From positions 1,382,574 through 1,442,346 of the forward strand of contig CAJINV010000014.1 in the NCBI GenBank assembly GCA_905178155.1: a stretch of DNA of 59,773 nt, written 5' to 3'. The translations under genes and the position numbers were made by a program. Below the pieces are notes generated by a model. That model worked only from the letters and a program-made list of their open reading frames with translations, was not told where the DNA came from and ran no database searches. The stretch's first letter is position 1. Each line of letters begins with the position of its first letter. This DNA comes from Amoebophrya sp. A120 (lineage: Eukaryota > Protista > Dinoflagellata). This document shows, piece by piece, positions 1 through 59,627 of the stretch.

Positions 1-409
1 GAGGTTTCGACTTGCCCCGTATTCCACTACGTCTCTGCAATAAAGACAGACAAGAAAGATGCCGCGCCCGGGTGCGAAAGCGAAGAAAAGGGCGGCGGCC
101 AAGGATGCCGGCGAGATATGCAAGGCATGCGTGCCTGGGTCTGTGCGGGTTCCAGCTCTGTCATGCATGGCCTGCCTGGCCCTTGATGTTTGACGCGCAT
201 GACTTTGCATCTTTTGCATTTTCTCCGTTGTTCGTTCGGTGCGGTTTCTTGTAGTCCCCGACTCTATTGCGAGCATTTGCAACCAGACAGGCCCAGGCTG
301 CCTTGCTTTTGATATTCGACTATCAAGCGGGACACGAGATACGGGCCGCCGAAAAAGGGCCCGCGAAGCGGCTAGGGGGACCAAGCAGGGAGCTCGTCTG
401 AAGGTATCC

Positions 410-15826: not shown

Positions 15827-16079
15827 CTCAGTAACTGACTGAGCTACAACAGTACCTACTTCGTCGCAGCGTTGAAATTTCGGAAAAGATAAAGCCTACG
15901 CTGGCCGTTCGCGGTTAGATTTGGTATTTTTTCACAAGCTGACTCTGTACAACAGTGGAGCTGAAGACATTCGAAAAAAATGCGCAAGGCTGCTGAAAAA
16001 CATAAAAACGAAGGAAGACCGGAGGCCGGCAGACTCCTGCGCATGTGTGTCCCCCTTCTCCTTTCTTCTCTCGCCGTGT

Positions 16080-16601
16080 ATTATCTCGCGAGCGAGGGAC
16101 AGAAGACCGAGGACCGGAGACCAGCAGGCTCCCTTTTATGTGCCCGACCTTTCAAACTGCCGCCCTATCTCGTCAGCTACTACCTTGTGAGGGACTGAGG
16201 ACCGAGGACCGGAGGCCAAGAAACCCCCTCTCATGTTTCTCCGCTTTTTACTTTCTTACCCCTTCAAGTGTTACCTTTTGAGCGACTGAGGACCGAGGAC
16301 CGGAGACCAGGAAACTCCCTCTGATGTGTCTCTCTCAGCTTCCTACCTTCCTATCTCGTCAGGTATTACCTTGTGAGGGACTGAGGACCGAGGACCGGAG
16401 ACCAAGAAACTCCCTCTCATGTGTCTCAGCTTTCTACTTTCTTACCCCTTCACGTATTACCTTTTGGGCGACTGAGGACCGAGGACCGGAGACCAAGAAA
16501 CTCCCTTTCATGTGTCTCAGCTTTCTACCTTCTTATCCGTTCAAGTATTATCTTTTGAGCGACTGAGGACCGAGGACCGGAGACCAAGAAGCTCCCTCTT
16601 A
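16080..16601. repeat. Tandem repeat, six ~91-95-bp units
   Basis: GACCGAGGACCGGAG recurs at ~16105, 16200, 16291, 16386, 16477 and 16568. Confidence 0.9.
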
Positions 16602-16703
16602 TGAGTTGTAAGGAAGGTTCTTCCTTTTGCGGAAGTTGGGCGGTTGAGTGTTGTTTGTTGTTGTTGCAGTTCTTGCTCAAGTAGAGAAAAAACGCCAATC
16701 ACG

Positions 16704-29200: not shown

Positions 29201-29557
29201 CTTCTTGCAGGTATCAACCGCAAATGCGTCTGGGTCTGCTGGAAGAAAAGTGCGCCTTCCTGGAATGCAAATGCATGTTTTGGATTAATATAAATATTAT
29301 ACGCAGCTGCACTGGCATGCACGCACAAGCATGACAGATTTCTCGAGTGCTTCCCTATAGTGCCCTCGCTATGCAATGACGTGAGGAGTTCGCTCTTTGG
29401 GAAGCAAAAATCGAGCAGCTATTCCCGCAAATGCAACACAGAGACGAGTCAGGATTTTTGCGTGAATTTCAGTTCGCATGATCACAAATGCCAATCCGAA
29501 TCTTTATTCCCGAGGACCCGGACATATTTCCAATGCATAGCAGGAAAAGAAAATATC

Positions 29558-38500: not shown

Positions 38501-41500
38501 CGATAAGGTCGTGATGAAGATTTTATTCACAATCATACTCCACTTCGGCAGACCCCAATCAAGACGAAGCGATGATGACTTCGGAGCAGCGGCTTTTACA
38601 GCACCAACTGCTGCAGCAGCAGCAACAGCAGTACATGCAGCAGTACCATCAAAGCGACCAACCGCCGCAACCGATGCAGCAGAACTTGACGTCTACCGTA
38701 ATCGACGGCGCGCCAGCACCAGCACCTAATGGCCCTTCTGCTTTGGTGCCTCAGGCTGCAGTCTCTTTGCAACAACAGCAATCGTTGCTGATGATGAACC
38801 CGTTAATGCTGCGTCCATCCGCTGTGCAGCAACAAGATGACGACGACGACAAGCTCTCCGTGCACAGCCACCGCAGCGGGAAAAGCGCCTACTCCGCCTA
38901 CAAGACGAGGTCCAGGGACAGCTTGCCGGCCTTGGCTGAAGCCAGTCCGTACGGCGGAGGCGCAACCCGAAACCGCCGGCCCGGCAGCGCCAGCAAATCA
39001 ACTACGACACGTATCGCATGTAGAAATAAACCTATATGACACTTCCCTCGGTTTGTGATTCGCCGACTTATGTATGACAGATAAAGGAAAAGGACTGCCC
39101 TTGTTCTGGAACTGTTTCTTAGTAGAGGGTATGCGCGAGGGCAGGGCCTGCTGAGCTATTGCATGCATTCACTACATCTACATCTACTACACAAACCGAG
39201 CGTCGATGCGGTTTCCATTCCCATACTTAGCACAACGCCGCCTCCCGACCTGCTGCTCCAGCAGCAGCAGGCGCAGATCAGCGCGCAGCACCAGCAGCAC
39301 CTACAACGCGGCCTTGCGCAGCTTGAACAGGACCACAGTCCCTACGGAGGACCCCAACACCAGCAGGACGCTGTGATGCAGGACTTGCAAAACCAGCAAA
39401 CGGCCCTGTCCGACCAGCAGCTGCTTCACATGCAAACCCAAGGCCTCACCGCGGAACAAATCCAGCAGTACCAAGCCCATCTCGACGCGTCGCAACAGCG
39501 ACTACAGCCGAGCCAATTCAATTCCGCACCGCCAGTTTTGTTTCACACCGAACCGCCGCGACGACACTACAGACCGCAGCACGGGGCACGGGGAGACGAC
39601 GCGAGTTCCTTCGCGTCCGACGACTTTGACGCGTTGCGGAATTCCGACTCGGTCGGGGAAGCTGGTGATCCAACAGGGTCCTCTTCACCATCGCCAGAAC
39701 AAGGAGGTTTTGGTTTTGGTCCAGGACAACAACCACAAGCATTCACCGGTCACCTCGTCCCGCCGCTGCAATTATCCGCGGCCAGGGGGACAGTCATTGA
39801 CAACTACACGGACGACCAGCGTGGTCCCCACGTCGACACAGCCAGATCCTCTGCCGCGAGCTCCGGGTTCGCACCTTCGTCTGCCGGCGGGGGAGGATTG
39901 GTGTCTGTGTCTCGTCGGGGCTCGCTGGCAGGAGTGGAGGGCACAATGATAGGACACGGCGAGGACGGGGCTCTGGCTCCAACCGCCCCGGGAGGTGGTG
40001 GACTAGTACCGCAGCCGCGGGCAAAATCCTGGAAGGAGCTGCATGTGGAAGCGAGGCCGGCTCCGGCACACATCGTGGTGTTTGATTGGGACGACACATT
40101 GCTACCTACCTGGTACATCGGCAACGTCGTGCTGCCCTGCGTCACCGGATTGAAATTCTGCAGCATGGTACAAATTGTATAGCTTACGGACGAAGTAGAT
40201 GAAGATGAATATTACATAATTCAAATACTCACTTTAAGATGAATATTACATAATTCAGTAGCGGCAAAGCTATCTGTAGTGCTTTCCTGGTAGAACAGCC
40301 GCGCCACGCCGCTGAGCGGGAGACGGCCTGTCCAGTGAGTGAGTGCCCCGTCAACTGCTCGCCGGGGCGCTGCGTGGAAGAGCAGCGTCGCCGCATGTCG
40401 AGCCGGGGAACTAGTTTGCTTTCGATTGCCTTTTTATTTTTTAAGTTCCCCGTCATCTCAATTCCCCCTTAACTTGCCGCCTTACTCTTCACGGACATGG
40501 GGGATGACATCAGCGCGTAGAACGGTTTGAACCAGACTCGGGCTACAAGGCCACAGGTAAACTATCCCAGTGTCTTCCGGCCGGCCTTGACGCAATCTGA
40601 CTACTAAAAACCTCGCGGTAGCTGGGGGGCGTTCTAGTCTTCGGTCTAGTTCGTCGCCCTCTACCAGGCCTGTACTACCTGAAAGCAGAACTTCGGCTAG
40701 GGCAACAAGATCACATCAAGCAGCATCCGCGAGCAGCATCCGAACCGAGAGTAGTCAGCCGGGCCATTTCTGAAGGCGCTGCGAGGTGGGCGGAGAGGCA
40801 TCACGCTAGCAGTTGGACGGGAGCAAGGCCAGCGTTCTTCTGTGTGATGTTCGTCGTATACTGTCCTGCCTAGTTCAACTATGTAGGTTATCTCTCTCTC
40901 TCTCAAATACTTTAAGATTAAGTTTGTGTGGTGGACGATTTTCAGCCCTGTTCTTCGTCTGGCAATAGTTTTTCAAGGTTAAGATTTTGGATTTGGTCTT
41001 GATTTTTAGAACTATGCATGGCCGAGAAGTAGTTGTGGATGTAGTAATTGCAAATAGAACCTTTTTCAACATCGAAACGTACAGAATTCTGACTACAAAC
41101 TGGACCCCACGGACGATTTCTACGACGGTCTGAACGACCACGCACAGTTGATCCTCACGATTATTCGCACCGCATTGAACCTCACGCCGCACGTCTTCAT
41201 TGTTACACTCGGGAAGACGGGATGGGTAGAACTACAAAGACGATTTTTTTACTGTTTTTGCATTAGATTTCAAAAGGAAAAACTAAAACTCATATTCCAT
41301 GCATTTTTTTCTCCAGCATTGCCTTGCTTGCGTGTAAATAAGTGTCAGGATAGAACAAAAGCACGACGAGCTGCAACAGAAAAAACGTAGGCACTCTCAC
41401 TTATCAGGTTTCCCGTTCTGCCGCACAGCGGTTGCCTGGTTTCACCGAGACCACACTGACCGAAATGGGTGTCAACGTGTACTACGCGCGCGAGTACTTG

Positions 41501-44500
41501 AGCCGGCGCGAGGCGATGCTGTGCCAACAGGAGGAGGGGTGCGACCCGTTCATGGTGGCGAAACGGAATGCGTTCAAGAAGGTGATGAAGGTGGTGGTAA
41601 AGAGTCAGGAGAAGTTATGGAAGAAGGCACATAAGGTATGAAATCCACATCAAACCCATTATTCGTATAGGCTTAAGCGACGAATCCGAATCGTAAAGAC
41701 CCCCGCACCAGAAGTCACCATGGCCTTGTTATTCTAAACCTACTACTAGGTCTAGGATCCGCAGCACATCGGCCCGGAAATTGTAGATGTGCTAGCATTG
41801 TGCGTGTGCAGCACAGTGTGAATTTTAATAAAGCAATTATCACATCAGGACGCCGTCGGGTCCCAGCTGATGCACCTTGAAGCGGCGAAATTCGGGTCGT
41901 CTTCCAGTCAAGGCTCGCGTCTGTCCTCCGGCTCCACTGGTTCCAGTGCCAGCGGTATCGATTGCAAATATGTCTGGGTCTGGAAGAGTCATGCTGTTCT
42001 TGCATGGCACAGAAGGTCTGGCATGGAAGCTCTAGCATCACAGGTTTCGAGAAGCTTCGGCAATGCCGAACCCGCATGAGAAATCCCCCACTTTGGTGAC
42101 AGAAAGTGGCCAGCTTTTGCTACCTAATATGCATGAGAGATTTTTCTGCGTTCTAAAATGCGCATCATAAGTTTGTATTCTTGCAGACCCAGACGTATTT
42201 GCATTTGATAAGCGGCGTTTCGTCCGCGTGCGGCACCGAGTTGGGCTGCGAGGTGTTTGGCACCGCTGTGGACTCGCCTAGAAACGTGCTTTGGCGGTAT
42301 CAACAGCAGGCTATTGACGACCCGCACACCAGACTGCTGGTCCAAACCGGCCAGCCGCAGTTCAAATTCCAGCGACGCATCAGCAACGCAGCTGCGGCTA
42401 GTGCCAGGTCGAAAAAATCCCGTCGCGGAGAACAAGTTGGTGGAGCAAGTGCTAGTGGACATCATGATCCCGAAGTAGATGATGAGGCCGCCGAAGTAGA
42501 AGATGATAGCATGCGTGGCACGAACACCACCCAGCAGAGTATAATGCAACGAAGCAACGAGCCAGATTTTTCGCATCGCGGCGGGCACGACAGGGTGGCC
42601 GAGATGCTGCGGCACGGTTCGCGCGGGGACTCGTTCGCCTCGGTGACGCAGATGTCGGACTCGGAGGCAGATCCCAGTTCGCGGGGGGGCACATTTATTG
42701 GCCATCTTCACCCGGCTTCGATCCAGGAAAACGAAAGTTTGAACCGCCACATGGACCGGCGCGACACCGTGTCCACGGAAAACTCGTACGCCGTGTCAGC
42801 CCGCGATTCCTTCATGTCCTACGGGTTGGGCACGATTCGCAGCAGCCAATCCGCCACCTCCTCCGCGTTGCAGCGGGGCTTGGGGCTCCCCGCCGGGTCG
42901 GATGCGCCAAGCCAAACCGCCAGCTCTCTCAGTCGGTTTCTAGACAAGCAGGCTCACATCGAAATCGGGGGGAAGAAACAAGCGGGAGGTAGCCTGTTCG
43001 GAAAACCCAGCGAGGAGCCGCCGTCTCCCACGGGGCCGGCCCGCGTGGAAGTGGTGCACAATGACGTCGGCCCGGAGGAGCCAGATGCGGACGAAGCCTT
43101 CTTTGGAAACCTGTTGCCCCGATATGACAGTGCACAACTCGAAGATGTCCCTGTCTTGTCATTTGAAGTTGTGCATCCGCAGCGACACAAGCCACGGCAG
43201 AGCAAATAATGGGTCTTCCGCATGAAAAATAATGCGCACGGTATTATTCGGATTGTGGTACTGTTTCACCTTGTTCGAAGATTTCTCACGCAATTAGAGG
43301 TGAATTTGGTATTTTGCATTACAAATGAGCAGCAGGGGCAGAGGGACGTCGACTACTTGCGCACTTTCATACAACGGGCCTGCGCAAACAAGAACCGGCC
43401 CAAAGTTCTGCCTACCGGCAGCGGCAACAGGAAAGCAGCTCCAGTTCCTCTCTCCCTCGTAGTTCTACTGTGAGCGAGCCGAAGAAAACCGTGAATTCGT
43501 TCACGTTGGGCAGCACGAGCGCTACGTTTGGCGAGGATATCGACCAGATGACGGGCGGTGTGCGCGGAACAAACATTTCATCTGTCATGATACCTACGCC
43601 CCCTCCGCGAGCACCAGCTGCCAACAACAGGAAAAACGAAACTGCCACCGCCCTTGCTCCCCTCGCTGCCTCGCTCGCCGAGCGGTTGGCATCTGCGGTA
43701 CAGTGGGAAAAAGACCACTCCGGCCGGACCGTGACAGAGGACTTGCCCGGCGGGCTACAGGGCTATACCTTCCCCGGTGGACCACCAGGTCATCAACACG
43801 GGGGCGACTATACCAATGGGAGCAACAGCGAGCGTGGGTCGTTCGATTCCTCTGACAGTTTTGCCCGGGCCAATTTGGTGGACAAGGACAAAATCCTTGC
43901 GAGTTTCGACTACAAGCTGCAGTCCCATCACACCGTCGGAAGCATCCTGTCCATCGGCGACGGCCCCGCGGAGCGGGTCGCTTGTCAGGATGTCGTTTGG
44001 TGCATCGCTGGCTCCACGACCTTGCAGGACAGCGGCCAGGATCTGTGTAACGAGGTCGGGATGATTGCGGGCGAAGAAGGTGGAGAGCAGAATGGAGAGC
44101 TGGAGGAACAGCAAAACGGGATGAAAAAGAAGAAAAAGATATCATTTGTAAAAACGTCCCTACCCTAGAGTTGTAATGCAAATCTGCATGCTGAAAATGT
44201 TTCTCATGCGGAGACCCATGAGAAGCAGTCTCTCGTCGTGGTGTGGGATTTGTGATGCTAGAATCAGCATGATATGCTAGAACTGTGATGCTGCTGAACA
44301 AGCTAAACGGGATTACACCGCGAGGCCAAACTTGTCATGCGCAACAGCAAAAGCTGACAGATTTGTCTAGCAGATTTCCCAGCTTGACTCTGGTGTGGGG
44401 ACGTTTTTACTCAGGATAAAAGAAGAACGAGCTGCGGTGCAAAACCATCAAATTTGAGGAGGAACCGAACCTGGAGGTGCTCGGCGAACAGTTAAAACAA

Positions 44501-44743
44501 ACCACGGAGTATCTGCCCAGTTTTATCACGTACGAAGGCGACTTCCACTTCGATCACGACGCTTCGAGTCGCGGCAGCACGTCGCAAGCGGGCAGCCGGC
44601 CGGCGACCCCGGACCACGCGGGACAACGGGAGGATGGGGTGTTGGAGCCCGCTGCGGCCACCAACCGCAACCCCGCGGCAGAGTTGGAACGGCAGTGGCG
44701 CACATCCCACCGCCGGGCCAAAGTCGCCGGGATGCTGGCGTAG
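29558..44743 (+). CDS. Q-rich protein with a split HAD-superfamily domain (alveolate HADO-like); middle part present twice
   Basis: Motifs VFDWDDTLLPT, VFIVTLGKTGWV, YYAREY, AKRNAF, ILSIGDGPAER and CKTIKFEEEPNLEVLGEQL. GT-AG introns at 33429-34345, 34487-34668 and 34897-35109; introners at 35217 and 37401/44140. Start and some 5' junctions are unresolved. Confidence 0.7.
30160..31226. repeat. 68-bp direct repeat of coding sequence (30160-30227 and 31159-31226) around a 931-bp insert
   Basis: The copies differ at one base and the offset is 999 bp. The insert contains a ~120-bp tandem duplication (~30344-30572). Confidence 0.85.
35217..35471. mobile_element. Introner element (family B)
   Basis: TATCGATTGCAAATATGTCTGGGTCTG...CAGACCCAGACGTATTTGCATTTGATA with perfect AGCGG flanks. 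Removal gives SASG|VSSA in frame. Confidence 0.9.
37401..37679. mobile_element. Introner element, first copy, ending exactly at the duplication junction
   Basis: Same sequence as 44140-44418. The right flanking repeat is missing and replaced by GN. Confidence 0.8.
41956..42210. mobile_element. Duplicate copy of introner 35217-35471
   Basis: Lies within the 6739-bp duplication. Confidence 0.85.
44140..44418. mobile_element. Introner element
   Basis: TATCATTTGTAAAAACGTCCC...GGGACGTTTTTACTCAGGATA with perfect AAAGA flanks. Removal gives KKK|KNELRCKTIKF. Confidence 0.9.
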
Positions 44744-47700
44744 GGAAGACCTGAGGTGGTCGTTTGGGGAAGAGAGTAAAAGCTGGAGAATGCGAAAGCT
44801 ATGCAAGTCGATTGAAATACTAGTACTAGTACTACATTTTGGGAAGGCGGTAGAAAAAAATCTAAACCTGTACTACAACCACCAAAAAGTGAGGCTACAA
44901 GCTGTACTATTTTTGTACACGACAAAACGCCGCAGCTGCATAGCAGTACGACCCCATATTGTACTAGATGTAGATGTAGTTGTTGCCACATGATAGATAT
45001 TGATCAAATGATTTACAGCGGACTTTAGCTGAAATACTGAAGGGTTTGTTCAGGGTTACAGCGCAAAAAACATCCTTCATTTAACACAGCAAAACAATTT
45101 ATAAATGCATAGAATCAATCTCAATGCGAAAGGAGCGCACAGTTATTTTCTCGACATATGATACAAAATTTTTTTTATCCGGTCGAAAACACGTGAATAA
45201 TAATAAACAAGGAGCCTCCCGCCTACAAAATTCGAAATAGAAAGCCCTACAATACTACACCCTCAGAGAAAAAAAAACCCTAGAGGTTCTTGCTTGTAGA
45301 GAAATTCTTGCAAGAGGAATTTCTTTGCCGGCAGTCGGACAGGACCACGGGGTTAAAGAACGAAAACGAAAATCAACATTAGTTCCTCAGGAACAAGGGG
45401 CACGAATTTTGCATGGGAGAGTGGAAGACGTAGACGGTGATGAAGAATGCCACGATATCTCAAGGGTCTCTGCATGTTGAGCGACCTATTGCTCTATCAA
45501 TCTCTATCTCTATTTGCTTCTGCTTCTAAAAAATCCAAACCTAGATGATGTGCTTACAGTGTAGTGACCTTTTGCTTGTAAATACGAAAACAAGAGACCA
45601 AAGAACAGGATAAAAATTTATCTTTTTTTTTGCGCGATATGTTAACTTAAATCAATGCAAATAATAATGTCTTCGATCCGGTGTTTTCAAAATAGAGGCA
45701 GTTTTTGCAGTAGGTAACTTCTGAAGAGGACAGTAGAGGCAGTACTAGGTTCTCCTTTGTTCCGCAGCTCAGGACAAATTTCTTTGCTGTGAAGCATGGG
45801 GAACGAGTTTTACTGTTTTTTGTGTCGTCTTCTTTTCTAACGATAGTGATCGAACGAAGTCGAAGAAAAAAATGGCAGACCTACTATTAGGATCGCGCTC
45901 AATGATATCATTTCCATTGCCACTGAGATCTCGCCGTGAGGAGTTGCTCGGGCTGTGTTAGCCTGACAAGCCTCCGCGAAATCGTGGATTGGCCTTGATT
46001 TTTCGAAAGTCTTTGGATCACCCTCACTGGAAAGTAGCACTCAGAGTGCCAGGACAAACGTTACGCTCGGGGCGGCCCCTCTGACAGCAATAGAAGACAA
46101 ACAAAACAAGACAACATCTTCTAGAAGTACTCAAAAGTGTAGGCAAAAAAAAAACAAAGCGTATGACAACCGAAGGAGTTTTATTGCAATCGGAAATCTA
46201 TCCGCTTCCGCGCAAAAAGTCTTTACTTTTTTCAACCAGAACGTCATTAGTTGATTTGCAGTCGCAAACACCACGACCCATAATCACCAAAATAGGCGGC
46301 GTTGCACGAAAGAGGTTGAAATTACAAAGTTTAGAGAGTACTATCGCATATACAGGATCAGGTGGATAGAAAGGCCACAGAAGTACTAGTCGGAGGCTCC
46401 GGCTAGTGCATTGTGTTAGAATTGTGAAGGAGAAACGTCTGATGTAGTAAGAGGGATAAAGGAAGAAATACGGAAAAAATATGTATGCAGAAAATCGTGG
46501 TAGTGCAGCCTATTCCTACGAAATTGAAAAGTAGATTAAGATGGCCTTTGCTTCGCTTACTCTCGACACAGCATTATTTGCTGCTCCTTTGCTACAAGTG
46601 TAGCTGGTAGCTTTTTTTTTCTTTTGTGTGAAGAGACAAACTATGATTGAATCTACAGAAATTTGTTCAGTCCAACAGGTGTAGCTCTGTGTATCATGGA
46701 CCACGGACGTAGAGGTATCGCTCTTTTGCTTTTGGTATTTATAATTTGTCTTTCTTGTTTTGGTAATCCGAACTCACCAACTGCACCTCCAACTTGTATG
46801 CCTTTGGGTCTTCTCCATTGCAGAAGATCCTTGCCGTACTTACAACGAGGAGGAAGAACTTAAAACGAGAAGGCCTCAGTGAGTTGTTTTTGCTTCATTA
46901 TTGTTAAACAGACCAAGCTATTGACTCACTGCCACATATGATGAAATAACGACAGAATTATAAATTATTTGGAACTGTTTTCCCTGCAGCGGTCGTGATA
47001 AAACTTAGAAATACAGATTGAAAAATAGCGATCTCTACTTTCTGGGCCCAGCCCCAGGCTCGCACGAGGCACCGTAGTGAATAAGTACATCATTTGGGTT
47101 TCTACTTGATTTGGGGCAGAAGTTGCTGCTGAATATTAACGATTACAATTGATTTTGGACATAATGATCAGACATTACAACAGCGCCGTACAAGCGCACT
47201 TAGCTAATATCGAGACACTGGTCGTCTGCTTTTCTTGGTGAGGACATTTTCTGTCCATTTCCAGCAGATGGAGATCACTCCGTTTGAGGAGATATCATGC
47301 AGGGGAGGAAGCAAGTTGTGCCTAGTTCGCTCGTGGTGCTTCCTTTTGAATCAGAACCTTTTCTATGTTGATGCAAGGAAGCACTCAGCAGGACGACGAT
47401 GCAACTCACTCACAGGGTGAAAGGCGTGCTGGAAGTGGTAACATCACTTCTACCGGAAAGAACTGATAATCAAAGATGGACTCTGCGAAAGTTGTTTGCC
47501 ATTTACTTCTAGTTCTGCCTCGGCGCTATTAACGAGTGGAGCAAAATGAAAATCGCAGACCATGATAATGAATTTCAGAGAATAAAGACAAGGATGACTA
47601 GTTTGATGAAGAAGGAATTTGATAGAGACATTTCAGGACGATCGACCAAAAGTTCGCGTCTAGAACTTAATAGGAAATTCTGAAAAAATAATAAAGCCGC

Positions 47701-49829
47701 GCACGAGGAGATCAGTACAAATAGCAACGGTATTGATGCCGGGGGACAAAAACTTTACTCGTCTGCACATTGTACTAAGTAACGCTGGCGGTTCGCTGTT
47801 ATGCCCGGGCTTCCTAGTGGTGGTGGGCTTGGGGGTGAAGATCGTACTACCACATTTTTGACGCATTGTCATTCTTGACGGCACAGGTTCACAACAAGGA
47901 CTAGCACTAGCACAGGTTTTTGTAGTTTGTGGTAGTTTCTGACAGGAGGATCTTCATCACTATCGTGAACTCAAGCCTGCCAAATCCCGTTTCGAGACCC
48001 CCAAGCAAGAACAAGAGACGAAGGGCCCGAAGCACGACAGGATTTCACAACGCGTGGTGCGGCGTTCTTCTTAATATGTGCCGTCGACGATGAATCGACA
48101 TAGAAGATAAAAAGTTAGTTTAGTTTTTTGTCTCGTAGTTCTTTGTGCTTCTCTCGCGTCTGGCACAGATTGAAAGTAGCAAATCGCTTGGAAAAATGTC
48201 GAACAGCTAGAGCATCCGTTCTATGCTTGTTTTGACAAAATTGCTTTTTTAGCTCATCTTTCGCTGCCATGGTCCGTCCTCACGTTTTTCTACTTTGAGT
48301 CTGGAACAACAGCACGTGTGTGTTATATCGATCATTGAAAAAAGAAAGGTTTATTGTTCTTTGTTGTAGGAAAAAATCTTTAGTTTCTTCTTCTGGGCTG
48401 CATGTGCGCGTTTTGTTTTCAGATTGTCTACAACGTGCATGCTGGTCGTCTTGTTCCCGTTCACTAATACTAGCGTCTGGCCTTGGTTCTTCTTTTCTTT
48501 ACTTTTTTGTTCGCAACAACGAATAGCGAGCACGACGAGAAATCTGCGGCACCTCTGCAATACCGCCAGGAATATCGGCTTCGGTGCCTGTAGCTAGTAC
48601 TTATATGACGAACGTAGTGCAACATGAAAACTGGTGCATCAGGCTAGTTGTAGCAAAATTTTTGTGAGGGCTGCCCTGTCCTCCGCAACAGTGGCGAATG
48701 AACATCGAAGCTTTTGCTCCTGATTCTTGTGGCTGCTAAATTGAGGCGAAGAAAAGTTGTGCGCAATACAACCACAGAATAAAAATCAGAAAAAATAAAG
48801 CGAGCTCAAGCTCTCTACTCTCGCTATATGCTTTCATATGGTGTGATGTTGAACGCCTGCTGTAGCTGTTGTGCAAGCGGTCAGAAACAAGAAGTATGCG
48901 CGCGGTTCATCGCCATCGATTTTATTTGTAGACAAGGTACTAGCGGTATCCATGTTTGTGCATGTTATCGAAAAGGATGATCGGATCTTCATGAAGAATC
49001 TTGAACCCGAAGAAGATCAACTTCGCTAGGAAGTCATTTTTGGAAAGATGAAAAGATCTTGATAACTCTCAGTGATATCTTCCTCGCCAACAAAACACTG
49101 GTCGTAATGGTAATGCAGCCTGAAGAAGATCTACGAAAGCCACATAAGTTCATCATGATCACTTTTATTCCCACCAAAACCACATACTTACATACTTGTC
49201 ATTGTGAAGTGTTGTTTTTGTTGAGAAAGAAGCAGAATTGCAGCGAATTTTTAAACCCACGAAGAAGGATGGGTAGCAAATGGATAATGTTGAAACTGCA
49301 GGAAAGAGGAACCAGCCTGCCACGATGTAAAAAACGAGGCAACTGAAACCTTTTATTTTTCGATCTTGGTCTCACCAGCACCAGCTGTAGTAAGAGCTGG
49401 CGTTGCGTCGAAATGGAAGATGCTTTTCCTCTTTTTCTCGATCAACATCTGGTTTTTTTTTCAGAAATTCAAATTTCCTTGTGGTCCTCCAAGTGGATCA
49501 TCAATTGCAAACAGAGCGGTTTGCTTGTGCATGCTGGTCGAAAGAACAGGAACAACAACATTTGATGATCATGTCATTCGCATGTGTGTCACAACATTTT
49601 CGTAACATCAATCTCAGGCCGCGGCAAACTAATAGGTGGTACCGGTACGTAGACCTTGTAGTTGTAGAGTTTGAGTTTCAGACTTAATCTTTGCCTTTTT
49701 TACCAAATCAAATGGCAGTAACAGTAAGTCAGTTTTTACTCTTTGTTCTCTCAGCAAGCGACAAAACGACCAAAATTTTTCATGTAGCATTTTAAATTTT
49801 TACCAAAAAATCCAGCAACAGAAAAAAAA

Positions 49830-52800
49830 ATGCCGCACCTTTATTCCCTGACCCTGCAGCGGTCGACGGCTATTACCAATGCGATCTACGGGAATTTTTC
49901 TGCCGCAAAGTCGCAGGAGGTGGTGGTTTCCAGGGGAAAGATCCTGGAACTGCTCCGACCGGACGACCAGGGGAAAATCCAGTCGATTTACGCCACGGAA
50001 ATCTTCGGTATCATCCGAACGCTGGCACCCTTCCGCCTCACGGGGGCAAATCGGGATTACATCTTGGTGGGATCCGACAGCGGGAGGATAGTCATCCTGG
50101 AATTTGACACCGCGAAAAACGTCTTCAACAAAGTCCACCAGGAAACCTATGGAAAAAGCGGCTGCCGAAGGGTAATTCCGGGCCAATATCTCGCAGTGGA
50201 TCCCAAAGGAAGGGCGTGCATGATAGGTATCTATTTCTAGTAGCGCCCCTGGCGGCGCGGGTGCGGCAACTTCTACACGCGAACATTTATCTGCGTCACA
50301 GCTTGTTGAAATGATATTTTTCACTTGTAAAAAGAAGAAGAAGAGCAGAAGATTTTCGTCCTCCTGTCGTCAGAATCAGAAATATTAATTTATGCACTTT
50401 GTTCAAAATGAAAATTATCTTCTACAGGCGCCCTGGAGCGGCAAAAGTTCGCGTACATTCTGAACCGGGACTCCTCAAACAAACTGACGATCTCTTCCCC
50501 CCTGGAGGCGCATAAGGACAACGCGATCTGTATGGAAGCGTCAGGATCGAAATTGACAAAATCGAAAAATTTGTGATGCAGAAAATCGATGTCAGTCAGT
50601 GAGTTGGAGCGTCAATTTCCAAGTGGCGCATGACAAATTTTGGGAGCGCCCAAATCCAGTCTGTCATGCTGTTTGGGCAAAGAAGGCTGCTCCTGTCGTG
50701 CTAATCTGGCAGCACATTGCATACCCCTAAACAGACTTACAATTGGCCTCATTTGCCTGCTCCCCAATGCAGGCCTTCAGTGCCCTACATTTTATGCATC
50801 ACAAGTTTTTCGATCTTGTCGATTTCGATCCTGACACACCCATAATCTGTTTCCACCAAGTCGGGTTGGATGTCGGGTTCGAGAACCCCGTCTTTGCTTA
50901 CGAGAGTGCACAACTCCCCCTCCACCCCATTTGTCATGCAAAATACCTAATTTGCGCCTTACCCCTTGGCATTGTTTGCATGATAAGTTCTGGCAGCCCA
51001 AATAGCACTACACTTCTGTCCAAATTTGTCATGCGAAACCTGTATCCTTGCTGACGCTCGTATTGCTGTTCATGCAATACAAATGAGGGAGAGGGGGAAT
51101 TGTGCACTGTCATAGTCCCTGTTTGGAAGTCTCCACGGAGAAAATCGATGAGGATCCAGAAGCGGAGATGCCAAAGAAGCAGCTCACGTTTTACGAATTG
51201 GATCTGGGGTTGAATCACGTGATCAGAAAGTACACAGACACGGTAGAAGACTCCGCGCACTTGTTGATCCCGGTACCGGGGGGCTTGAGCGAGGGGCCGG
51301 GGGGCGTTTTGGTGTGCTGCGAAAACCACCTCTGCTACAAAAAGCAGGGACACCCAGACGTCATGTGCGCAATACCCAGAAGGTTGGAGATGGCACAGGA
51401 TAAAGGTACTATACTAGTAGATAACTCTAACTGCCCGCTTCATCTACTACACTGCTATGACAACTATCATGTTGACATAACATTGTGGTGCGATGACTGA
51501 AGTAGAACTCGCAATAGCTATGAAGCCATGTACTACTGGTTGACAAATTTCTTGAAGTAAGTAGACCCGTTGTCGTTCCCGCCCACGCTCATGCAAGAAA
51601 AGTCCTAAATTATCTTTCAAAAATTCAAAATCTATGCAGGTCTCATGATCGTGAGTTGTGCGATGCACAAGCTCCGGGAGTTTTTCTTCTTCCTGATCCA
51701 GTCCGAATACGGGGACCTGTACAAGGTGACACTCACTTCCGAGGAAGAGATCGTGAACGAAATTCAAATCAAGTACTTCGACACCATCCCAGTAACAACC
51801 TCTATTTGCGTGCTCAAGACCGGGTTTCTGTTCGCGGCCTCGGAGTTTGGCAACCACGCCCTGTACCAGTTCCAGGGCATTGGGGTGGATGACGAGGACC
51901 CGATCTGCACGAGTTCGCATCCGCACAAGGCACAAGCTCTGGTCGCGTTCAAGCCGAGAGGGCTCAAAAATTTGCTGATGTTCGACGATTTGTTTTCTCT
52001 CTCACCGATCTGCGACATGAAAATTTTGGACGCGGCAAACGAAGGGCAAACGCAGATATACACGCTGTGTGGCCGAGGTAGTGAAGAAATTTTTTTTATC
52101 GACGCACGCTTGATGGAGCTGTTGCTGTGCTATGTGGTCTTCTTTTTTCGAGGACGAGGTGCTGGTCATGCGTAACTACAAACAAGCTTGAAGATGATCT
52201 GATCCAATGCAGTGATGTGTTTGTCGTGAAGATCAAGATACCAATCGCAATTAGCCAACATCATATAGCAACAAACAAGCATCAGCCAACATTTAATATT
52301 CTCCAGGTCCCCGCTCCACCATGCGGGTGCTGCGGCACGGTTTGGGCGTGGTAGAAATGGCGGTCTCCGAGCTTCCCGGTCGACCTTATGCGGTCTGGTC
52401 CGTGAAGAAGTTGAACGAGGCGAAGTACCACCAGTACATCGTTGTCAGTTTCATCGACGTGACGCTAGTATTGTCCATCGGTGACACGGTGGAGGAAGTA
52501 TTAGACTCCGGCTTCCTCGCAACCGCGCCCTCGTTGCTGATCGCTCTCATGGCGGATGACTCCCATGTGCAAGTCCACCCGACCGGGATTCGACACTTAC
52601 TCCCGAGAAGGACGAACGAGTGGAAGGTGCCGGGCGGGAAGAGAATTCAAGCAGCAGCGGCAAACGATAGACAGGTATACTATAAAGTCATTCTCGAAGA
52701 AGTTTGTTCTGCTTTATTTTCGATACGTTTTGATAGGTCTACGTATTGCACTACAGTATATATAATAATGTTGTCTCAAGATGTTGATATCTTTCTTGAT

Positions 52801-55800
52801 GTGAAGATGCTCCTTGTCAAGGCAAAAAAATCAACATTTACAAGGTCGTGATCGCGCTTGCCGGTGGTGAGATTCTGTATTTCGAGATCGACGAGAACCA
52901 CGCACTGAACGAGGTCGCAAAAAGGGAAATGAACTACGAAATCGTCTCGTTGTCCGTCCAGCCAATACCAAAGAACCGGGCCCGCGCAAATTTCATCGCC
53001 GTAGGAGGAGTGGACAACTCAGTGAGGATACTTTCCTTGGACAAGGAAAGACCACTGAAGCAGCTGTCGGCGCAGGTACAAATTTAGAGAGACCGGAACC
53101 TGTATAGCGCAAGAAGAAGGACAAGTAGAGCATGACCATGTGTGTAAGCTGTAGCTGTGACTGTCTAGCCTTAGTTGTACTACATGGGACAACGAGCTGC
53201 AGTATGTACTACCTGCTACTTGAAGAATCTTCTCTGACTCTGTCGCTACAAAATCTGCGAAATTTTTACACTAACTCACTTTATCCCAGGCCCTGTCCCA
53301 CCAACCCGAATCCGTCTGCCTGATTGAAATGAAATCCGCCACAGACCGGGAAGCGCAGGGCCAGAGCTCCGTCGCCAACGACGGGGGTTTCACGAATCTC
53401 TACCTGAACATCGGGCTCTCTGCCGGGATCATGATTCGGTGCGTCGTGGATTCCATAACCGGAACGTTATCCGACCAACGGTCAAGATTCCTCGGGCACA
53501 AGAAGGTCAAACTCCACAAAGTCCTATGCATTGCAAAAGTATCGTACTAGTATGAATTGCATTACAAATCGACTTAGCATTACAAATTGAATTTGTAATG
53601 CTGATTTACCTTGAAAAAGAAACTTGTAATGCATAAATGCAATTGCTACGAGTACGATACTTTTGCACATGATAAGTCCAGGTGAATAACAACGAGCCGG
53701 CGTTGCTCGCCCTCTCCCAGCGGCCGTTATCAAATGTAAAAATGTCTGGGTCTGGAAAAGTGTAGACTTGTCATGCAGATTTTCCATGACCACCCATGAG
53801 GTCTGGAATGCGGGACTTAGCATGACAGACTCTGCGAGGTCTCTGCCATGCCTATCCTGCATGAGAAACTCCCCTCCAAGTTGGTCAAAAGTGCGCAGCT
53901 TTTGGCACTCATGCAACACAGATTTTCGCATGCTTCAGATTTACCATGACAAGTTGGAATCTTCCAGACCCAGACATTTTTGCAATTCATAGGCGTGGCT
54001 CAGCTACAACTTTCAAGGGCGATATCACTGCACCCCCATGTGCTACGACTCTCTCGAGTACGCCTGCAGCCTGACCTCCGAGCAGTGCCCAGAGGGGTTT
54101 GTCGCGATTTCGGGCAACACTCTGCGGATTTTGTCGATCGAGCGGTTGGGCGAGATCTTCCACCAACAGGTGATGCCGTTGTCCTACACACCAAGACGAA
54201 TGGCGCCCCTACCCCCACCCTCCATCGCGCCGGACCAGTTGCTGGAAGCACACAACCAGAAGATTCACCTAGCGGTCCTAGAGGCAGACCACAATGCTTA
54301 CAACGAGGAGACCAGACAAGAAATCAGGGCAGCGCTGAAGAAAATTCAGGTAAAAAAAAGTAAATTTTTTGGGGGAACATGTTTAGCTTAGTGCACTAAT
54401 TTTTGCCAACATGAAGATCACAATTTCTATCACAAGAACTTGAGAAGTGTCGTGTGGCAACCTTTCAAATTATACTTGTTTTTTGCAGCACCTTCCTTTG
54501 ATGATCATGCACATGCGCGATACAGAACCACCCATACAACTTCTCCGTCACAATAAACATCACAGGTTAACAACAACGAGGAGGAAGACCTCCCAGAAGA
54601 GCAGATAGGAACCTTTAAAGCCGGCGAGGGAAAGTGGGGTAGCTGTATCCGCATCGTGGACCCAACCCAGCTTGCGACCGTGTGCAAACTCAATTTAGAC
54701 ATTATCAAAAGGAAAAATCCCCCCTCCCCATATCAAAACGAAGTTTCTGATGCCGGATTTGCGTACACAAATCTGATTTGTCTTGCAGTAAGGCAGCGCA
54801 GCCAGATCCTCGGCCTAGGTAGGGGCGTTTGGGTCTAGTTGCTTAGCATTACAAACGGCTGCCCCCTAGGCGAAACAGCATGCAGCCAAATCGCTTCCAT
54901 AATGGAGCGGAAGCTTCTGCGCTTGTCTTCTTGCAAGACAGACGTGATTTGTGGTCTCAAATCAGCAACACAAATTTGCGGAGTCATACTTTTTCGATAT
55001 GGGGAGGGGGGATTTTTCCTTACAATAGACATCGACGAGTGCGCGGTTTGTGCGACAGTGTGCTACTTTACGCAGCTGCCAAAGCAGCCCTGTCTAGTGG
55101 TAGGAACCGCACACAACATGACCCTGAAGCCAAGGAAGGCTCCAAGGTAGAAAAAAAAAGCTCTCGATGCAAGTTCTTAGTCCTTGTTAGCCTTGTGATG
55201 CGCTTTGAAATTGTGCGAGTGCGGTGTGTCTTGGGTGAGCGCTAGTACCGCTACGTGAAATTTGTGTTGCGTGCTTTTCTACTAGGAACGGGGTCACAAA
55301 ATGTCCGACTAAGTCCTCGGGGGACCTGCGACCCACCCAGCCGGGTGGGCCTTAGGTCCCCTGTCCCAATATAGAATTGAGTTGCGAATCCGCCACAGCT
55401 CGCGTCCGCCCGTTCCAGTTTTCTCGCCGTTCTTTTTTGTGGGTGTCAATCTGTGACGCAGTAGCTTATGTATTATTGTATTTGTGCATTGCACTTATCC
55501 AAGAAAAAAGATTTGTGCACTGCATTTATCCAAGAAAAAAGCTTTGTTGTGGGTTAAGTCTATAATGCAGAAAATGCAAAGCTGTTTTTACGCAAAAGGG
55601 ACCTGTGATGCGGAAAATGCAAAAGTGTTTCTGCAGTTTCCTGTGAAACAGTTTTGCATTTTCTGCATCACAGATTTACACCCACCAAATAAGCTCTTTT
55701 CTGGGATAAATAGCGACAAACGGAGGCACAAGTACAATAGTGCAAGACTCTAATACAGATTTACACCCACTACAAACGGCGAGAAAACAATATGGGCGGA

Positions 55801-57094
55801 CGCGAGCTGTGGCGGAGTCATAGATAACTTAATTATTGGGACAGGGGACCTAAGGCCCACCCGGCTGGGTGGGTCGCAGGTCCCCCGAGGACTTAATCGG
55901 ACATTTTGTGACCCCGTTCGTACAGCTACTTGATCGTGATTCAAAAATCTACAGATGCGCCATCAAGACGTACATTTACGACGAGAACTACCAGCTCCAG
56001 CTGATCCACAGCACCCCAACGCAGGACGTTTGCCAGTGCCTCTTCCCGTTTGAGGGGCGGCTCCTCGCGGGGGTCGGGAAGTCCATGACGATTTTTGAAC
56101 TCGGGAAGAAGAAGCTGCTGAAAAAGTGCGAGTACAAGAACATTCCGGAGGCGATTTCCTGGATTCACGTAAAGAACGACCGGATTTACTGCACGGACGT
56201 CCGGGAATCCTTCCACGTGTTGAAGTACAACCGGGAAGAAAACATGTTGTTCGTCGTCTGCGACGACGTCGCGCCGCGCTGGATGATGGCGGCTTCCGTC
56301 ATCGACTACAGAACGATGTTCGGCAGCGACAAATTCGACAACATTTTCATGGCCCGGGTGCCGGAGCACTGCGCAAACGATGAGCAAGTGGACACCACCG
56401 GGATGCGACTGAAGGCGGATACTGCGTATAATATTTTGATGATTCTGTTCGTTTTCTATTTTTAGTTTCAACGTACCGGAATACGTTCTGTGTCATCTTT
56501 TCATCTAAATACTTTACGCCTAAGGGCTCAACAGGCTTTTTTTCTCGCTTTGCTCGAGATCTTTGTTGCGGGGTAGCAGTGTCAATAAGTAGCAATCGGA
56601 TCGACAACATCGGGGATATTATCGTGTTTCATCAATGCACTTTTTCAAATCTACTTCCGACAATTATAAATCAAAAAACTAGCTACCTCACGGGGCAGAC
56701 CGCCAAACTGGAGCACATTATGCAGTTCCATGTCGGTGAAATGGTAACCGCGGTCGAAAAAACGCCCATCGCCCTCGGCGGTGCGGATTGTATCATTTAC
56801 AGCACCTTGATGGGGTCGATCGGTGCGCTCTACCCCATCCAGACAACCGACGAAATCGACTTTTTGCAGCACCTGGAGATGGCCATGCGAACGGAGCGGG
56901 CCCCTCTTTGCGGGAGGGATCACATGGGGTTCCGGTCCGCGTTTTTCCCGGTGCAGAACTGCATCGACGGCGACCTGTGCGAGCACTACAGCTTGCTCTC
57001 GCAGAAGGAGCAGGTGTCTGTCGCGAGCAGTTTGGACAAAACGCCGGCGGAAATCTTGAAGAAACTCGAGGACATACGGAATAAGATTCTGTAA
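49830..57094 (+). CDS. SF3B3: Splicing factor 3B subunit 3 (SAP130/Rse1), 14 exons, 1213 aa
   Basis: Exons 49830-50226, 50428-50530, 50850-50898, 51120-51405, 51640-52077, 52307-52674, 52845-53075, 53290-53524, 53680-53727, 53997-54349, 54566-54702, 55033-55146, 55955-56425 and 56683-57094 (3642 nt). Hallmark peptides: [73 protein letters not shown]. Confidence 0.97.
50531..50844. mobile_element. Introner (family A), SF3B3 intron 2
   Basis: ~50-bp imperfect inverted repeat TATGG..GTCAGGATCGAAAT.GACAA.ATCGAAAAA.TTGTGATGCA with perfect ATCTG flanks. Removal gives NAIC|[13 protein letters not shown]. Confidence 0.92.
50899..51114. mobile_element. Introner, SF3B3 intron 3
   Basis: TA(C/T)GA(G/C)AGTGCACAA(C/T)TCCCCCT inverted ends with decayed flanks (TTGCT/GTCCC). 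Removing 221 nt gives PVFA|CLE. Confidence 0.88.
53525..53674. mobile_element. Introner, SF3B3 intron 8
   Basis: TGCAAAAGTATCGTACT inverted core, TAT..ATA ends and perfect AGTCC flanks. Removal gives HKV|QVNNNEPA. Confidence 0.92.
53728..53991. mobile_element. Introner (family B), SF3B3 intron 9
   Basis: AAAAATGTCTGGGTCTGGAA inverted core with flanks GCCGT/GGCGT. Removal gives SQRP|WLSY. Confidence 0.92.
54703..55027. mobile_element. Introner (family C), SF3B3 intron 11
   Basis: AAGGAAAAATCCCCCTCCCCATATC inverted core with perfect GACAT flanks. Removal gives LNLDI|DECAV. Confidence 0.92.
55283..55922. mobile_element. ~640-bp fold-back element inside canonical intron 55147-55954
   Basis: Outer ~85-bp arms are nearly perfect (GAACGGGGTCACAAAATGTCCGA.TAAGTCCTCGGGGGACC...GTCCCAATA). 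Progressively more degenerate arms lie further inward. Confidence 0.85.
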
Positions 57095-57845: not shown

Positions 57846-57913
57846 CCTCGACGACGCGGTGGGGGACTGCTCCCACCGCTCGGTGGGAGCAGTCCCCCAC
57901 CGCGTCGTCGAGG
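57846..57913. repeat. Perfect hairpin, 33-bp arms, 2-nt loop
   Basis: CCTCGACGACGCGGTGGGGGACTGCTCCCACCG-CT-reverse complement. Shares sequence with the 58219 palindrome. Confidence 0.9.
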
Positions 57914-58218
57914 CGCCTAGGGAGATGGAGCACCTGACCCGCGATGGAAGACATGGACCTCTGTTACACCCCGTAAGAAAAGGGCGGCGCGAGGTCTTAG
58001 CGGCCCATCCGTAGTAACGTAACCACCTTGAAACAACTGGGAGGGAGGGCGGGCGAAACAAATACCACCCCGAAATTCGGTGGGTTGTCCTGACTGATCT
58101 TCTCAAGTCCTGGCTACCGTACACTAAAGGGCTGAGGGCGGACACGGGCATAAAATACCGCCCGACCATCCTCAGCCTAGACTCACAGGCTCGCTAGCCT
58201 GCTGCTGCCCGGGCATTC

Positions 58219-58419
58219 ATTTTATGCAGTTACCGCAGACGGGCCACCCAATGGATGGCCGCTCGGTGGGAGCAGTCCCCCACCGCGTCGTCGAGGCGCC
58301 TAGGGAGATGGAGCATTTTATTTGCTCCATCTCCCTAGGCGCCTCGACGACGCGGTGGGGGACTGCTCCCACCGAGCGGCCATCCATTGGGTGGCCCGTC
58401 TGCGGTAACTGCATAAAAT
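58219..58419. repeat. Perfect palindrome, 97-bp arms, 7-nt loop
   Basis: 58219-58315 is the exact reverse complement of 58323-58419; the loop is TTTTATT. Confidence 0.95.
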
Positions 58420-59027: not shown

Positions 59028-59476
59028 CCTCGTTCGGGAACGAGGCGCGCAGACCCCGGCTTTTTTCAAAATGTGAGAACGCAGCGAGTTTTCGTGTGGG
59101 CTCTCGTTCCGCAACGAGAAACGCTGTGAGAATTCATCACTGAATTGCCACTCCAAGACTTTTCAAAAAGTGAGAACGCATTGATAGTGAATTCTTACTC
59201 GGCTTCTCGTTCCGGAACGAGAAATGGAGTGAGAATTTACTGAATTCTCACTCCAGGATTTTTCAAAAAGTGAGAACTCAATGAGTTCTCACTTGGTTTT
59301 CGTTTCGGAACGAGAAATGGAGTGAGTAGAATTCACTGAATTCTCAATCCCGGAAAATTCGTGATCCCAAAGTGGGATTTTTCAAAAAGTGAATACTCAC
59401 TGAATTTTCACTCGATTTCTCGTTCTGGAACGAGAAGCCGAGTGAAAATTCAGTGAGTATTCACTTTTTGAAAAAA
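59028..59476. repeat. Array of palindromic-motif repeats
   Basis: CTCGTT(C/T)(C)GGAACGAG, GAATTC and TTTTCAAAAAGTGA recur about five times. The last unit forms a ~90-bp imperfect palindrome (~59388-59475). Confidence 0.8.
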
Positions 59477-59627
59477 ATCACTTTTGGAGCATGCGTGTTT
59501 CTGGAGGAGACCCTGACGCTCTGAGACCTAAGCCAACGAATCACGACGGCAGCGCGGTTTCCTTGTGTTTAGAATGAGGGGAAAAAAATACGCATAGCGT
59601 CGTGATTTCGCTTTGTGGATTTTTTTG

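What the first reader, a model, noticed from the sequence alone, without database searches (positions are those of the whole stretch)
50531..55032. Five non-GT-AG introns in the essential SF3B3 gene are inverted-repeat elements with 5-bp direct repeats
The conserved SF3B3 sequence is restored only if each element plus exactly 5 nt is removed, and sliding the junction across the flanking repeat never gives GT-AG. All start TA(T/C) and end ATA. A core U2 snRNP gene therefore depends on an unconventional, probably stem-guided, removal at RNA (or DNA) level alongside eight ordinary GT-AG introns. Introners with inverted and direct repeats have been reported in Amoebophrya, so the phenomenon is probably not new, but to my knowledge the mechanism is unresolved.
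Basis: partly seen in the sequence, partly recalled or inferred. Interest (0 to 1): 0.7.

Follow-up and report, generated by a model that had tools for sequence, protein, structure and literature searches.

The report
Hairpin transposon introns in splicing gene
Five hairpin-shaped, transposon-like inserts interrupt a core splicing gene of the marine parasite Amoebophrya and are missing, to the base, from its transcript although they lack the normal GT-AG signals; such introns are already described in this organism, but the cut points here likely follow one fixed rule (1 base before and 4 bases after the hairpin) that would let any such insertion be removed seamlessly.

Summary
Real, but a described phenomenon. 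The gene is SF3B3; its spliced product equals a protein that its source names Amoebophrya sp. A120. Transcript-type contigs lack all 13 introns; each of the five elements is removed as TA..TA core plus exactly 5 nt, never at GT-AG. The flanks are perfect 5-bp repeats in only 3 of 5. These match the introner elements of Farhat 2021. DNA contigs keep the elements. What I add: where flanks differ, the cut can be placed. One register, 1 nt before TAT and 4 nt after ATA, fits 8 of 8 junctions, holds for one family in both orientations, sums to the duplication length, and puts TA at +2/+3 as in this gene's 8 GTA donors. It rests on 3 informative junctions (chance 0.19). A one-architecture model with a sliding aligner reproduces the published splice-motif 'diversity' (r 0.93-0.99), so that diversity is likely an annotation artefact. 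The machinery is untested; an altered spliceosome is my narrow favourite. The scan noted similar hairpin introns in other genomes.

The parts
49830..57094 (+). SF3B3 gene, ATG to stop, 14 coding exons, 1213 aa
   Evidence: joints joined = P0001; Pfam PF10433, PF23726, PF03178
50531..50844 (+). E1 core TAT..ATA, flanks ATCTG/ATCTG (50526-50530, 50845-50849); 319 nt removed; 50530-50848 under the 1+4 register
   Evidence: relative at 14350-14664, 76% over 323 nt
50899..51114 (+). E2 core TAC..ATA, flanks TTGCT/GTCCC (2 of 5); 221 nt removed; cut after flank base 3 or 4 (50897-51117 or 50898-51118)
   Evidence: reverse-orientation relative of A2
53525..53674 (+). E3 core, flanks AGTCC/AGTCC; 155 nt removed; 53524-53678 under 1+4; an in-frame GT..AG pair 6 nt wider is not used by the contig
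53728..53991 (+). E4 core, flanks GCCGT/GGCGT (4 of 5); 269 nt removed; cut after flank base 2-5; 53727-53995 under 1+4
   Evidence: relatives at 41956 and 29212
54703..55027 (+). E5 core, flanks GACAT/GACAT; 330 nt removed; 54702-55031 under 1+4
   Evidence: reverse-orientation relative at 7350-7613
50227..50427 (+). canonical GT-AG intron 1
51406..51639 (+). canonical GT-AG intron 2
52078..52306 (+). canonical GT-AG intron 3
52675..52844 (+). canonical GT-AG intron 4
53076..53289 (+). canonical GT-AG intron 5
54350..54565 (+). canonical GT-AG intron 6
55147..55954 (+). canonical GT-AG intron 7, holding a 640-nt inverted-repeat element (55283-55922)
56426..56682 (+). canonical GT-AG intron 8
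41956..42210 (+). A1: same kind of element in the upstream gene, flanks AGCGG/AGCGG, 260 nt removed
   Evidence: (X6 record 23)
43123..43371 (+). A2: element in the upstream gene, flanks CCCGA/CAACG; junction pinned uniquely at 43122-43375 (1+4; ends AT..AC)
   Evidence: (X6 record 23)
44140..44418 (+). A3: element in the upstream gene, flanks AAAGA/AAAGA, 284 nt removed
   Evidence: (X6 record 23)

Best explanation
The five inserts are repeated TA..TA inverted-repeat elements, likely non-autonomous DNA transposons that made 5-bp target duplications, and they are absent from the spliced transcript together with exactly 5 flanking bases, likely removed from the RNA at a fixed distance from the terminal stem (1 nt before TAT, 4 nt after ATA), most likely by an altered U2-type spliceosome. 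Shown: anatomy, repetition, core+5 removal in 8 of 8 elements with transcript cover, retention in DNA contigs. Inferred step 1 (about 0.93): removal is RNA splicing. Inferred step 2 (about 0.7): the register is fixed at 1+4 along the direction of transcription; since 1+4 equals the duplication length and both element ends carry TAT, any insertion in either orientation would be removed without changing the protein, which would explain how tens of thousands are tolerated. Inferred step 3 (about 0.5): the catalyst is the ordinary spliceosome with free +1 and free acceptor dinucleotide, the element's TA serving as donor +2/+3 and the stem bringing the ends together in place of U1 and AG recognition.
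For: Core+5 removal in 8 of 8. Register 4 is the only one common to all 8; A2 allows only 4, E2 3-4, E4 2-5, and all three exclude the mirror register 1. A2 and E2 are one family in opposite orientations (reverse z 9.6, forward z 2.2), both in plus-strand genes. DNA-like run X1 shows no joint at E1, E2 or intron 1, and one contig (42185-44196, depth 43.6 against 43.9 single-copy) runs unbroken through A2. Other copies end at the same bases with unlike flanks (loose ends at 53728, 53991, 54703; 44418). All 8 canonical donors start GTA; register 4 makes all 8 elements start NTA. The spliceosome is nearly complete in this genome (83 of 89 proteins; PMC7789003 section 10), and tunicates splice non-GT-AG introns with a modified spliceosome (PMC13326754, abstract).
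Against: Only 3 of 8 junctions inform on the register; three random junctions would share one with P 0.19 (0.037 for register 4 itself, which I singled out afterwards). The one junction that pins it (A2) happens to read AT..AC, so it could be chosen by its end bases. Contigs show the majority form only; no raw reads of this strain were available (X9, X10 laid 46 and 5 partial reads, none on exons). For the catalyst: no terminal G or AG in most, the stem would hide the donor, U1 snRNA was not found (PMC7789003), the 3' ends (U-tract of the arm) differ from the A-rich canonical acceptors, and the closest geometric analogue, euglenid introns, leaves as circles by unknown machinery (PMC11282704 section 6). 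No lariat, circle or snRNA was tested.
Confidence: 0.55

Rival explanations
1. Same anatomy and same fixed 1+4 register, but the intron is cut and joined by a non-spliceosomal, stem-measuring nuclease and ligase (or a separate dedicated machine), as proposed for euglenid nonconventional introns.
For: No conserved end bases; strong terminal stems (z -5.9 to -13.3 in 7 of 8); orientation-independence; U1 not found (PMC7789003); Euglena introns use a paired motif with fixed 3-nt and 5-nt spacers (PMC12501133 section 8).
Against: TA at +2/+3 coincides with the GTA of all 8 canonical donors; A2 is removed exactly although its whole-element folding is weak (z -1.8; its terminal pairs are still predicted); no candidate enzyme was looked for.
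Confidence: 0.3
2. RNA splicing with a variable register: within each 5-bp duplication the machinery takes whichever cut gives the most splice-like ends (AT-AC, GT-x, x-AG).
For: A2 reads AT..AC at its only register; E5 could read AT..AC at register 3, E4 GT..GC at 3, E1 and A1 GT at 4, A3 AT..AG at 4. Published tallies are symmetric: 69% N-T starts and 68% A-N ends in 9,716 introns.
Against: E2 has no such option (CT..TC or TT..CC) and is still removed exactly; E3 ignores a true in-frame GT..AG; the symmetric tallies are reproduced by aligner sliding alone.
Confidence: 0.1
3. The elements are excised from DNA (IES-like or transposase-mediated precise excision) in the transcribing nuclei, or the mRNA comes from an uninterrupted copy.
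For: Transposon anatomy; precise loss of one duplication copy is what DNA excision can give; DNA and RNA runs are different samples, so a stage-specific event is not excluded.
Against: DNA contigs retain the elements at single-copy depth with no joined form listed (contigs show presence, not absence). A dyad-symmetric DNA event should give registers 4 and 1 alike, yet 3 of 3 exclude 1 (P 0.125). The transcript contig has 0 other letters in the listed pieces and also lacks the GT-AG introns.
Confidence: 0.05

Closest known systems
Introner elements among the non-canonical introns of Amoebophrya sp. A120 (Farhat et al. 2021, PMC7789003)
   Same: Same organism by protein identity (P0001). Terminal inverted repeats starting TAT, direct repeats of 3-5 nt (5 bp in the legend of Fig. 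S19), repeated families, mixed with GT-AG introns in one gene, length about 150-330 nt.
   Different: No difference in kind. [quoted passage not shown]
A120 introner families of the 2025 introner survey (PMC12130899, Dataset S2, 58 families; family 38 noted '5-bp TSD, TA/TA termini', Ginger-like)
   Same: TA/TA termini, 5-bp duplication, TIR DNA class for most families.
   Different: Its automated calls differ from family to family (co-opt both, co-opt 5', carry 5', direct; duplication 2-11 bp); no common rule is stated in the passages and rows I saw. I did not assign the five elements to its families.
Euglenid nonconventional introns (PMC12501133; review PMC11282704)
   Same: No GT-AG, base-paired ends, duplication-like repeats, fixed short 5' spacer and longer 3' spacer around a paired motif, coexistence with GT-AG introns.
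   Different: Motif CDG/CHG with 3 and 5-6 nt spacers and a purine after the intron, against TAT/ATA with 1 and 4 nt here; circles shown there, untested here; unrelated lineage.
Non-canonical MITE-derived introns of Fritillaria borealis (PMC13326754 abstract; PMC11282704)
   Same: Transposon-derived introns with inverted repeats and duplications removed without GT-AG.
   Different: There the ends are mostly AG-AC/AG-AT and U2AF paralogues and snRNA methylation are implicated; here the end bases are free and nothing of the machinery is known.

Membership tests
Amoebophrya A120 introner elements | Transcript-supported intron with ends other than GT-AG | tested here: met
   5 of 5, (contigs guessed to be RNA; they also lack the 8 GT-AG introns)
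Amoebophrya A120 introner elements | Inverted repeat joining the two intron ends | tested here: met
   arms 30-56 nt, 81-97%; folding z -7.0 to -13.3
Amoebophrya A120 introner elements | Direct repeat of 3-5 nt over the borders | tested here: met
   5/5, 5/5, 5/5, 4/5 and 2/5 letters; E2 alone would not pass
Amoebophrya A120 introner elements | Arm motif TAT, seven looser bases, then at least three A | tested here: met
   TAT at 9 of 10 ends; the AAA run in E3, E4, E5 (3 of 5), not in E1, E2
Amoebophrya A120 introner elements | Repeated in the genome | tested here: met
   relatives within the window for E1, E2, E4, E5; many contigs with unlike flanks at the same end bases; copy numbers not measured
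Non-autonomous TIR DNA transposon (MITE) | Terminal inverted repeats, target duplication, short, no coding capacity | tested here: met
   longest stop-free stretch 49-87 aa
Non-autonomous TIR DNA transposon (MITE) | An autonomous partner with the same ends and a transposase | not testable with these tools
   no whole genome is held; family 38 of PMC12130899 is a published candidate
U2-type spliceosomal intron | GT/GC donor and AG acceptor | tested here: not met
   no slide gives GT-AG in 8 of 8; only +2T/+3A match the donors under register 4
U2-type spliceosomal intron | Branch point, lariat, dependence on snRNPs | not testable with these tools
   needs intron-product sequencing or perturbation
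U12-type intron | AT-AC or GT-AG ends with the long 5' consensus (ATATCCT, recalled) and U11/U12 snRNAs | tested here: not met
   AT..AC is open to E5 and A2 only, neither has the consensus; minor snRNAs reported absent (PMC7789003 section 10)
Euglenid nonconventional intron | N3-CDG ... CHG-N5-6 | purine | tested here: not met
   ends read N-TAT ... ATA-N4; works alike in geometry only
Euglenid nonconventional intron | Released as full-length circle | not testable with these tools
   no back-joint among the joints shown (16 and 13 rows not shown); contigs cannot settle it
DNA-eliminated sequence (IES-like) | Joined form exists in DNA | tested here: inconclusive

The most novel reading that the evidence does not exclude
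Amoebophrya A120 runs a second splicing code, N-TAT...ATA-N4, in which both cuts are measured from the transposon's terminal stem and their offsets (1+4) equal its 5-bp duplication, so every insertion in either orientation becomes a seamless intron; the reported 'unprecedented variety' of splice motifs is one rule blurred by aligners sliding inside the duplication.
Probability: 0.55. Interest if true: 0.75.

Novelty: already known. Interest (0 to 1): 0.5.

Why it matters
The elements and their gene model are already on record, so the finding as written is not new. The open question, how tens of thousands of introns without splice signals are removed, becomes testable: the 1+4 rule predicts the junction of every element whose flanks have drifted, which existing RNA data can check in a day, and it tells where to look for a branch point or circle junction. 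If it holds, it explains why these transposons are harmless in essential genes, gives a second case (after Euglena) of stem-measured nuclear splicing, and would correct the border annotation of a large share of this genome's introns.

Tried and rejected
No whole genome is held, so no copy counts, snRNA search or transposase search. No holder is on record as RNA; X3-X6 are guessed RNA, and I treat them as transcripts because they lack all GT-AG introns. Three protein searches for the annotated product of the 7-15 kb gene, which would have given up to four more informative junctions, did not return it. First metagenome scan found nothing; the second gave 70 loci, of which I examined 11: all five positions are uninterrupted wherever covered, but the nearest genomic locus is only 66% identical and also lacks this gene's canonical introns, so it is no true empty-site test. 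Rfam: 0 matches in the window. Table S4 of PMC7789003 (9 of 9 top A120 motifs start N-T) and the PNAS tallies looked like support for register 4 but are rejected as evidence: fixed register 4 fits them poorly (r 0.61-0.67), aligner sliding fits well and is blind to register and to duplication length 3-6. Three of 58 Dataset S2 rows (fam56, fam74, fam160) show 1+4 coordinates, but so do two non-Amoebophrya rows, so I count them neither as support nor as prior description. RNA editing, frameshifting and nearby GT-AG use were rejected by the contig sequence.
Full report
1. What is there. The region encodes SF3B3: exon 1 matches P0001 at 100%, a 1213-aa protein that its source names Amoebophrya sp. 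A120; the A25 protein P0002 is next (84% over the whole length). Five inverted-repeat elements interrupt the coding sequence at 50531-50844 (E1), 50899-51114 (E2), 53525-53674 (E3), 53728-53991 (E4) and 54703-55027 (E5), with arms of 56, 42, 32, 30 and 30 nt. All start TA(T/C) and end ATA. Eight GT-AG introns are also present, all starting GTA.

2. Are they removed? Runs X3 and X4 (contigs, guessed RNA) each hold one record of about 4.3 kb that covers the exons with 0 other letters in the listed pieces and skips all 13 introns; X6 repeats this for intron 1, E1 and E2. The skips at E1-E5 are core + 5 nt in 5 of 5. Joining the exons at these joints gives a stop-free 1213-aa protein identical to P0001, colinear with homologues at all five sites. 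No equivalent slide gives GT-AG. At E3 an in-frame GT..AG pair 6 nt wider exists but the contig keeps those two codons, as does the A25 protein by length. Three more elements in the upstream gene (A1-A3) are skipped as core + 5 in one X6 record, leaving a frame open for 697 codons. So 8 of 8 elements with transcript cover behave alike.

3. DNA or RNA? The DNA-like run X1 (it may be the sample the window was built from, so it is not independent) lists no joint at intron 1, E1 or E2, and one contig runs unbroken through A2 at depth 43.6 against 43.9 for single-copy sequence. Contigs drop rare forms, and DNA and RNA are different samples, so this lowers but does not close DNA excision.

4. Transposon anatomy. 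The 5-bp flanks agree in 21 of 25 letters for the five (P 4e-9) and 60 of 80 for 16 elements in the window. The elements fold back strongly (z -7.0 to -13.3) and canonical introns do not (7 of 8 tested, z -0.9 to +1.6). They are repeats: E1 has a 76% relative at 14350, E4 at 41956, E5 at 7350, E2 at 43123; other contigs share an element up to its exact end base and then diverge; summed depth at element ends in X1 reaches thousands against 44, which is no copy number. None codes for more than 87 aa.

5. Where exactly is the cut? With perfect flanks the cut cannot be placed. Drifted flanks place it. Counting left-flank bases kept in the mRNA, A2 allows only 4, E2 3 or 4, E4 2 to 5; the other five are uninformative; 4 is the only value common to all 8. 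The intron then reads N-TAT...ATA-NNNN. A2 and E2 are relatives in opposite orientation (z 9.6 reverse, 2.2 forward), so the asymmetry follows the transcript and not the element, as expected of an RNA substrate. Against: three informative junctions agree by chance with P 0.19 (0.037 for value 4; 0.125 if only 4 and its mirror 1 were open), and A2's ends happen to read AT..AC. Attempts to gain more junctions failed.

6. The published motif diversity. Farhat et al. report over 60% non-canonical introns with no clear end signature and an unknown border (PMC7789003, sections 10-12, 16, 32, 36 and supplement part 3 read; figures not seen). Dataset S2 of PMC12130899 (passages, and all 58 A120 rows read) gives full dinucleotide counts for three families (9,716, 1,322 and 540 introns). 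A model with TAT..ATA ends, a random perfect 5-bp duplication and an aligner that slides towards GT-AG or CT-AC reproduces them with r 0.93-0.99; other termini (CAG/CTG, GGG/CCC) give 0.45-0.64, no preference 0.26-0.31, fixed register 4 or 1 give 0.59-0.67. The fit is equally good for duplications of 3-6 bp and for TGT/ACA ends. So the diversity is likely an annotation artefact, and those tables say nothing on the true register.

7. How it likely works. A TA-ended transposon inserts and duplicates 5 bp (inferred). In the pre-mRNA its arms pair (predicted). Cuts fall 1 nt before and 4 nt after the stem (inferred, 0.7), which removes the element and exactly one duplication's worth, whatever the target or orientation. 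The catalyst is open. I favour, narrowly, a U2-type spliceosome with relaxed ends, because register 4 puts TA at +2/+3 as in all 8 GTA donors of this gene, the protein set is nearly complete in this genome, and tunicates offer a precedent (PMC13326754, abstract only). A non-spliceosomal stem-measuring route is nearly as good: U1 was not found, end bases are free, and Euglena introns have the same geometry with 3- and 5-nt spacers (PMC12501133, abstract and sections 8, 12) and leave as circles (PMC11282704, section 6).

8. Comparison and novelty. These are members of the A120 introner elements by every feature I could test; family 38 of PMC12130899 is already noted with 5-bp duplication and TA/TA termini. 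Strains AT5 and Kv have canonical introns (PMC12005148, passages); general introner geometry is in PMC9860276 (passages). The Roy et al. dinoflagellate introner preprint I saw as a search listing only. Six searches showed no paper that states a fixed register for Amoebophrya; subscription journals are mostly not covered. The scan's earlier notes list hairpin-bounded non-canonical introns in other genomes (unchecked) and nothing for this genome or sequence.

9. Verdict. Observation confirmed with one correction; interpretation supported; class already known. Interest 0.5, carried by the testable 1+4 rule and the artefact argument, not by the host gene.

Noticed in passing
window 30943-37679 and 37682-44418: A 6,737-bp perfect tandem duplication with the window's single N between the copies. 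A DNA contig inside it has single-copy depth (43.6 against 43.9), so it is likely an assembly artefact.
   Followed up: partly
window 55283-55922: A 640-nt element with 129-nt inverted arms (91%), bounded by TA and without a 5-bp duplication, sits inside canonical intron 7 and holds an inner inverted repeat (55555-55678); a different MITE-like class that is not itself a splice unit.
   Followed up: no
window 117-314, 1164-1331, 7350-7613, 7997-8094, 10152-10472, 10566-10736, 14350-14664, 29212-29539: Eight more TAT..ATA elements without transcript test; several have drifted flanks (7350, 7997, 1164, 117) and would test the 1+4 rule.
   Followed up: partly
window 44418-48745: The upstream gene's contig (X6 record 23) runs about 4 kb past its stop codon without a joint, suggesting a very long 3' UTR.
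   Followed up: no
window 53907-53981: Raw RNA run X9, which has no reads on the SF3B3 exons, has 46 reads at 90-99% on part of E4, so a related element is transcribed in another strain or organism of that sample.
   Followed up: no
window 57846-58419 and 59061-59491: Near-perfect palindromes (201 nt at 97.5%) and a complex of short repeats downstream of SF3B3; 58223-58415 has TAT..ATA ends but no 5-bp duplication.
   Followed up: no
window 16014-16606: Tandem array of about 95-100-nt units upstream of a long ORF.
   Followed up: no
L001 about 4245-4345: A 66%-identical SF3B3 gene on a metagenome contig has two introns at other positions; the first appears to start GG or GA instead of GT.
   Followed up: no
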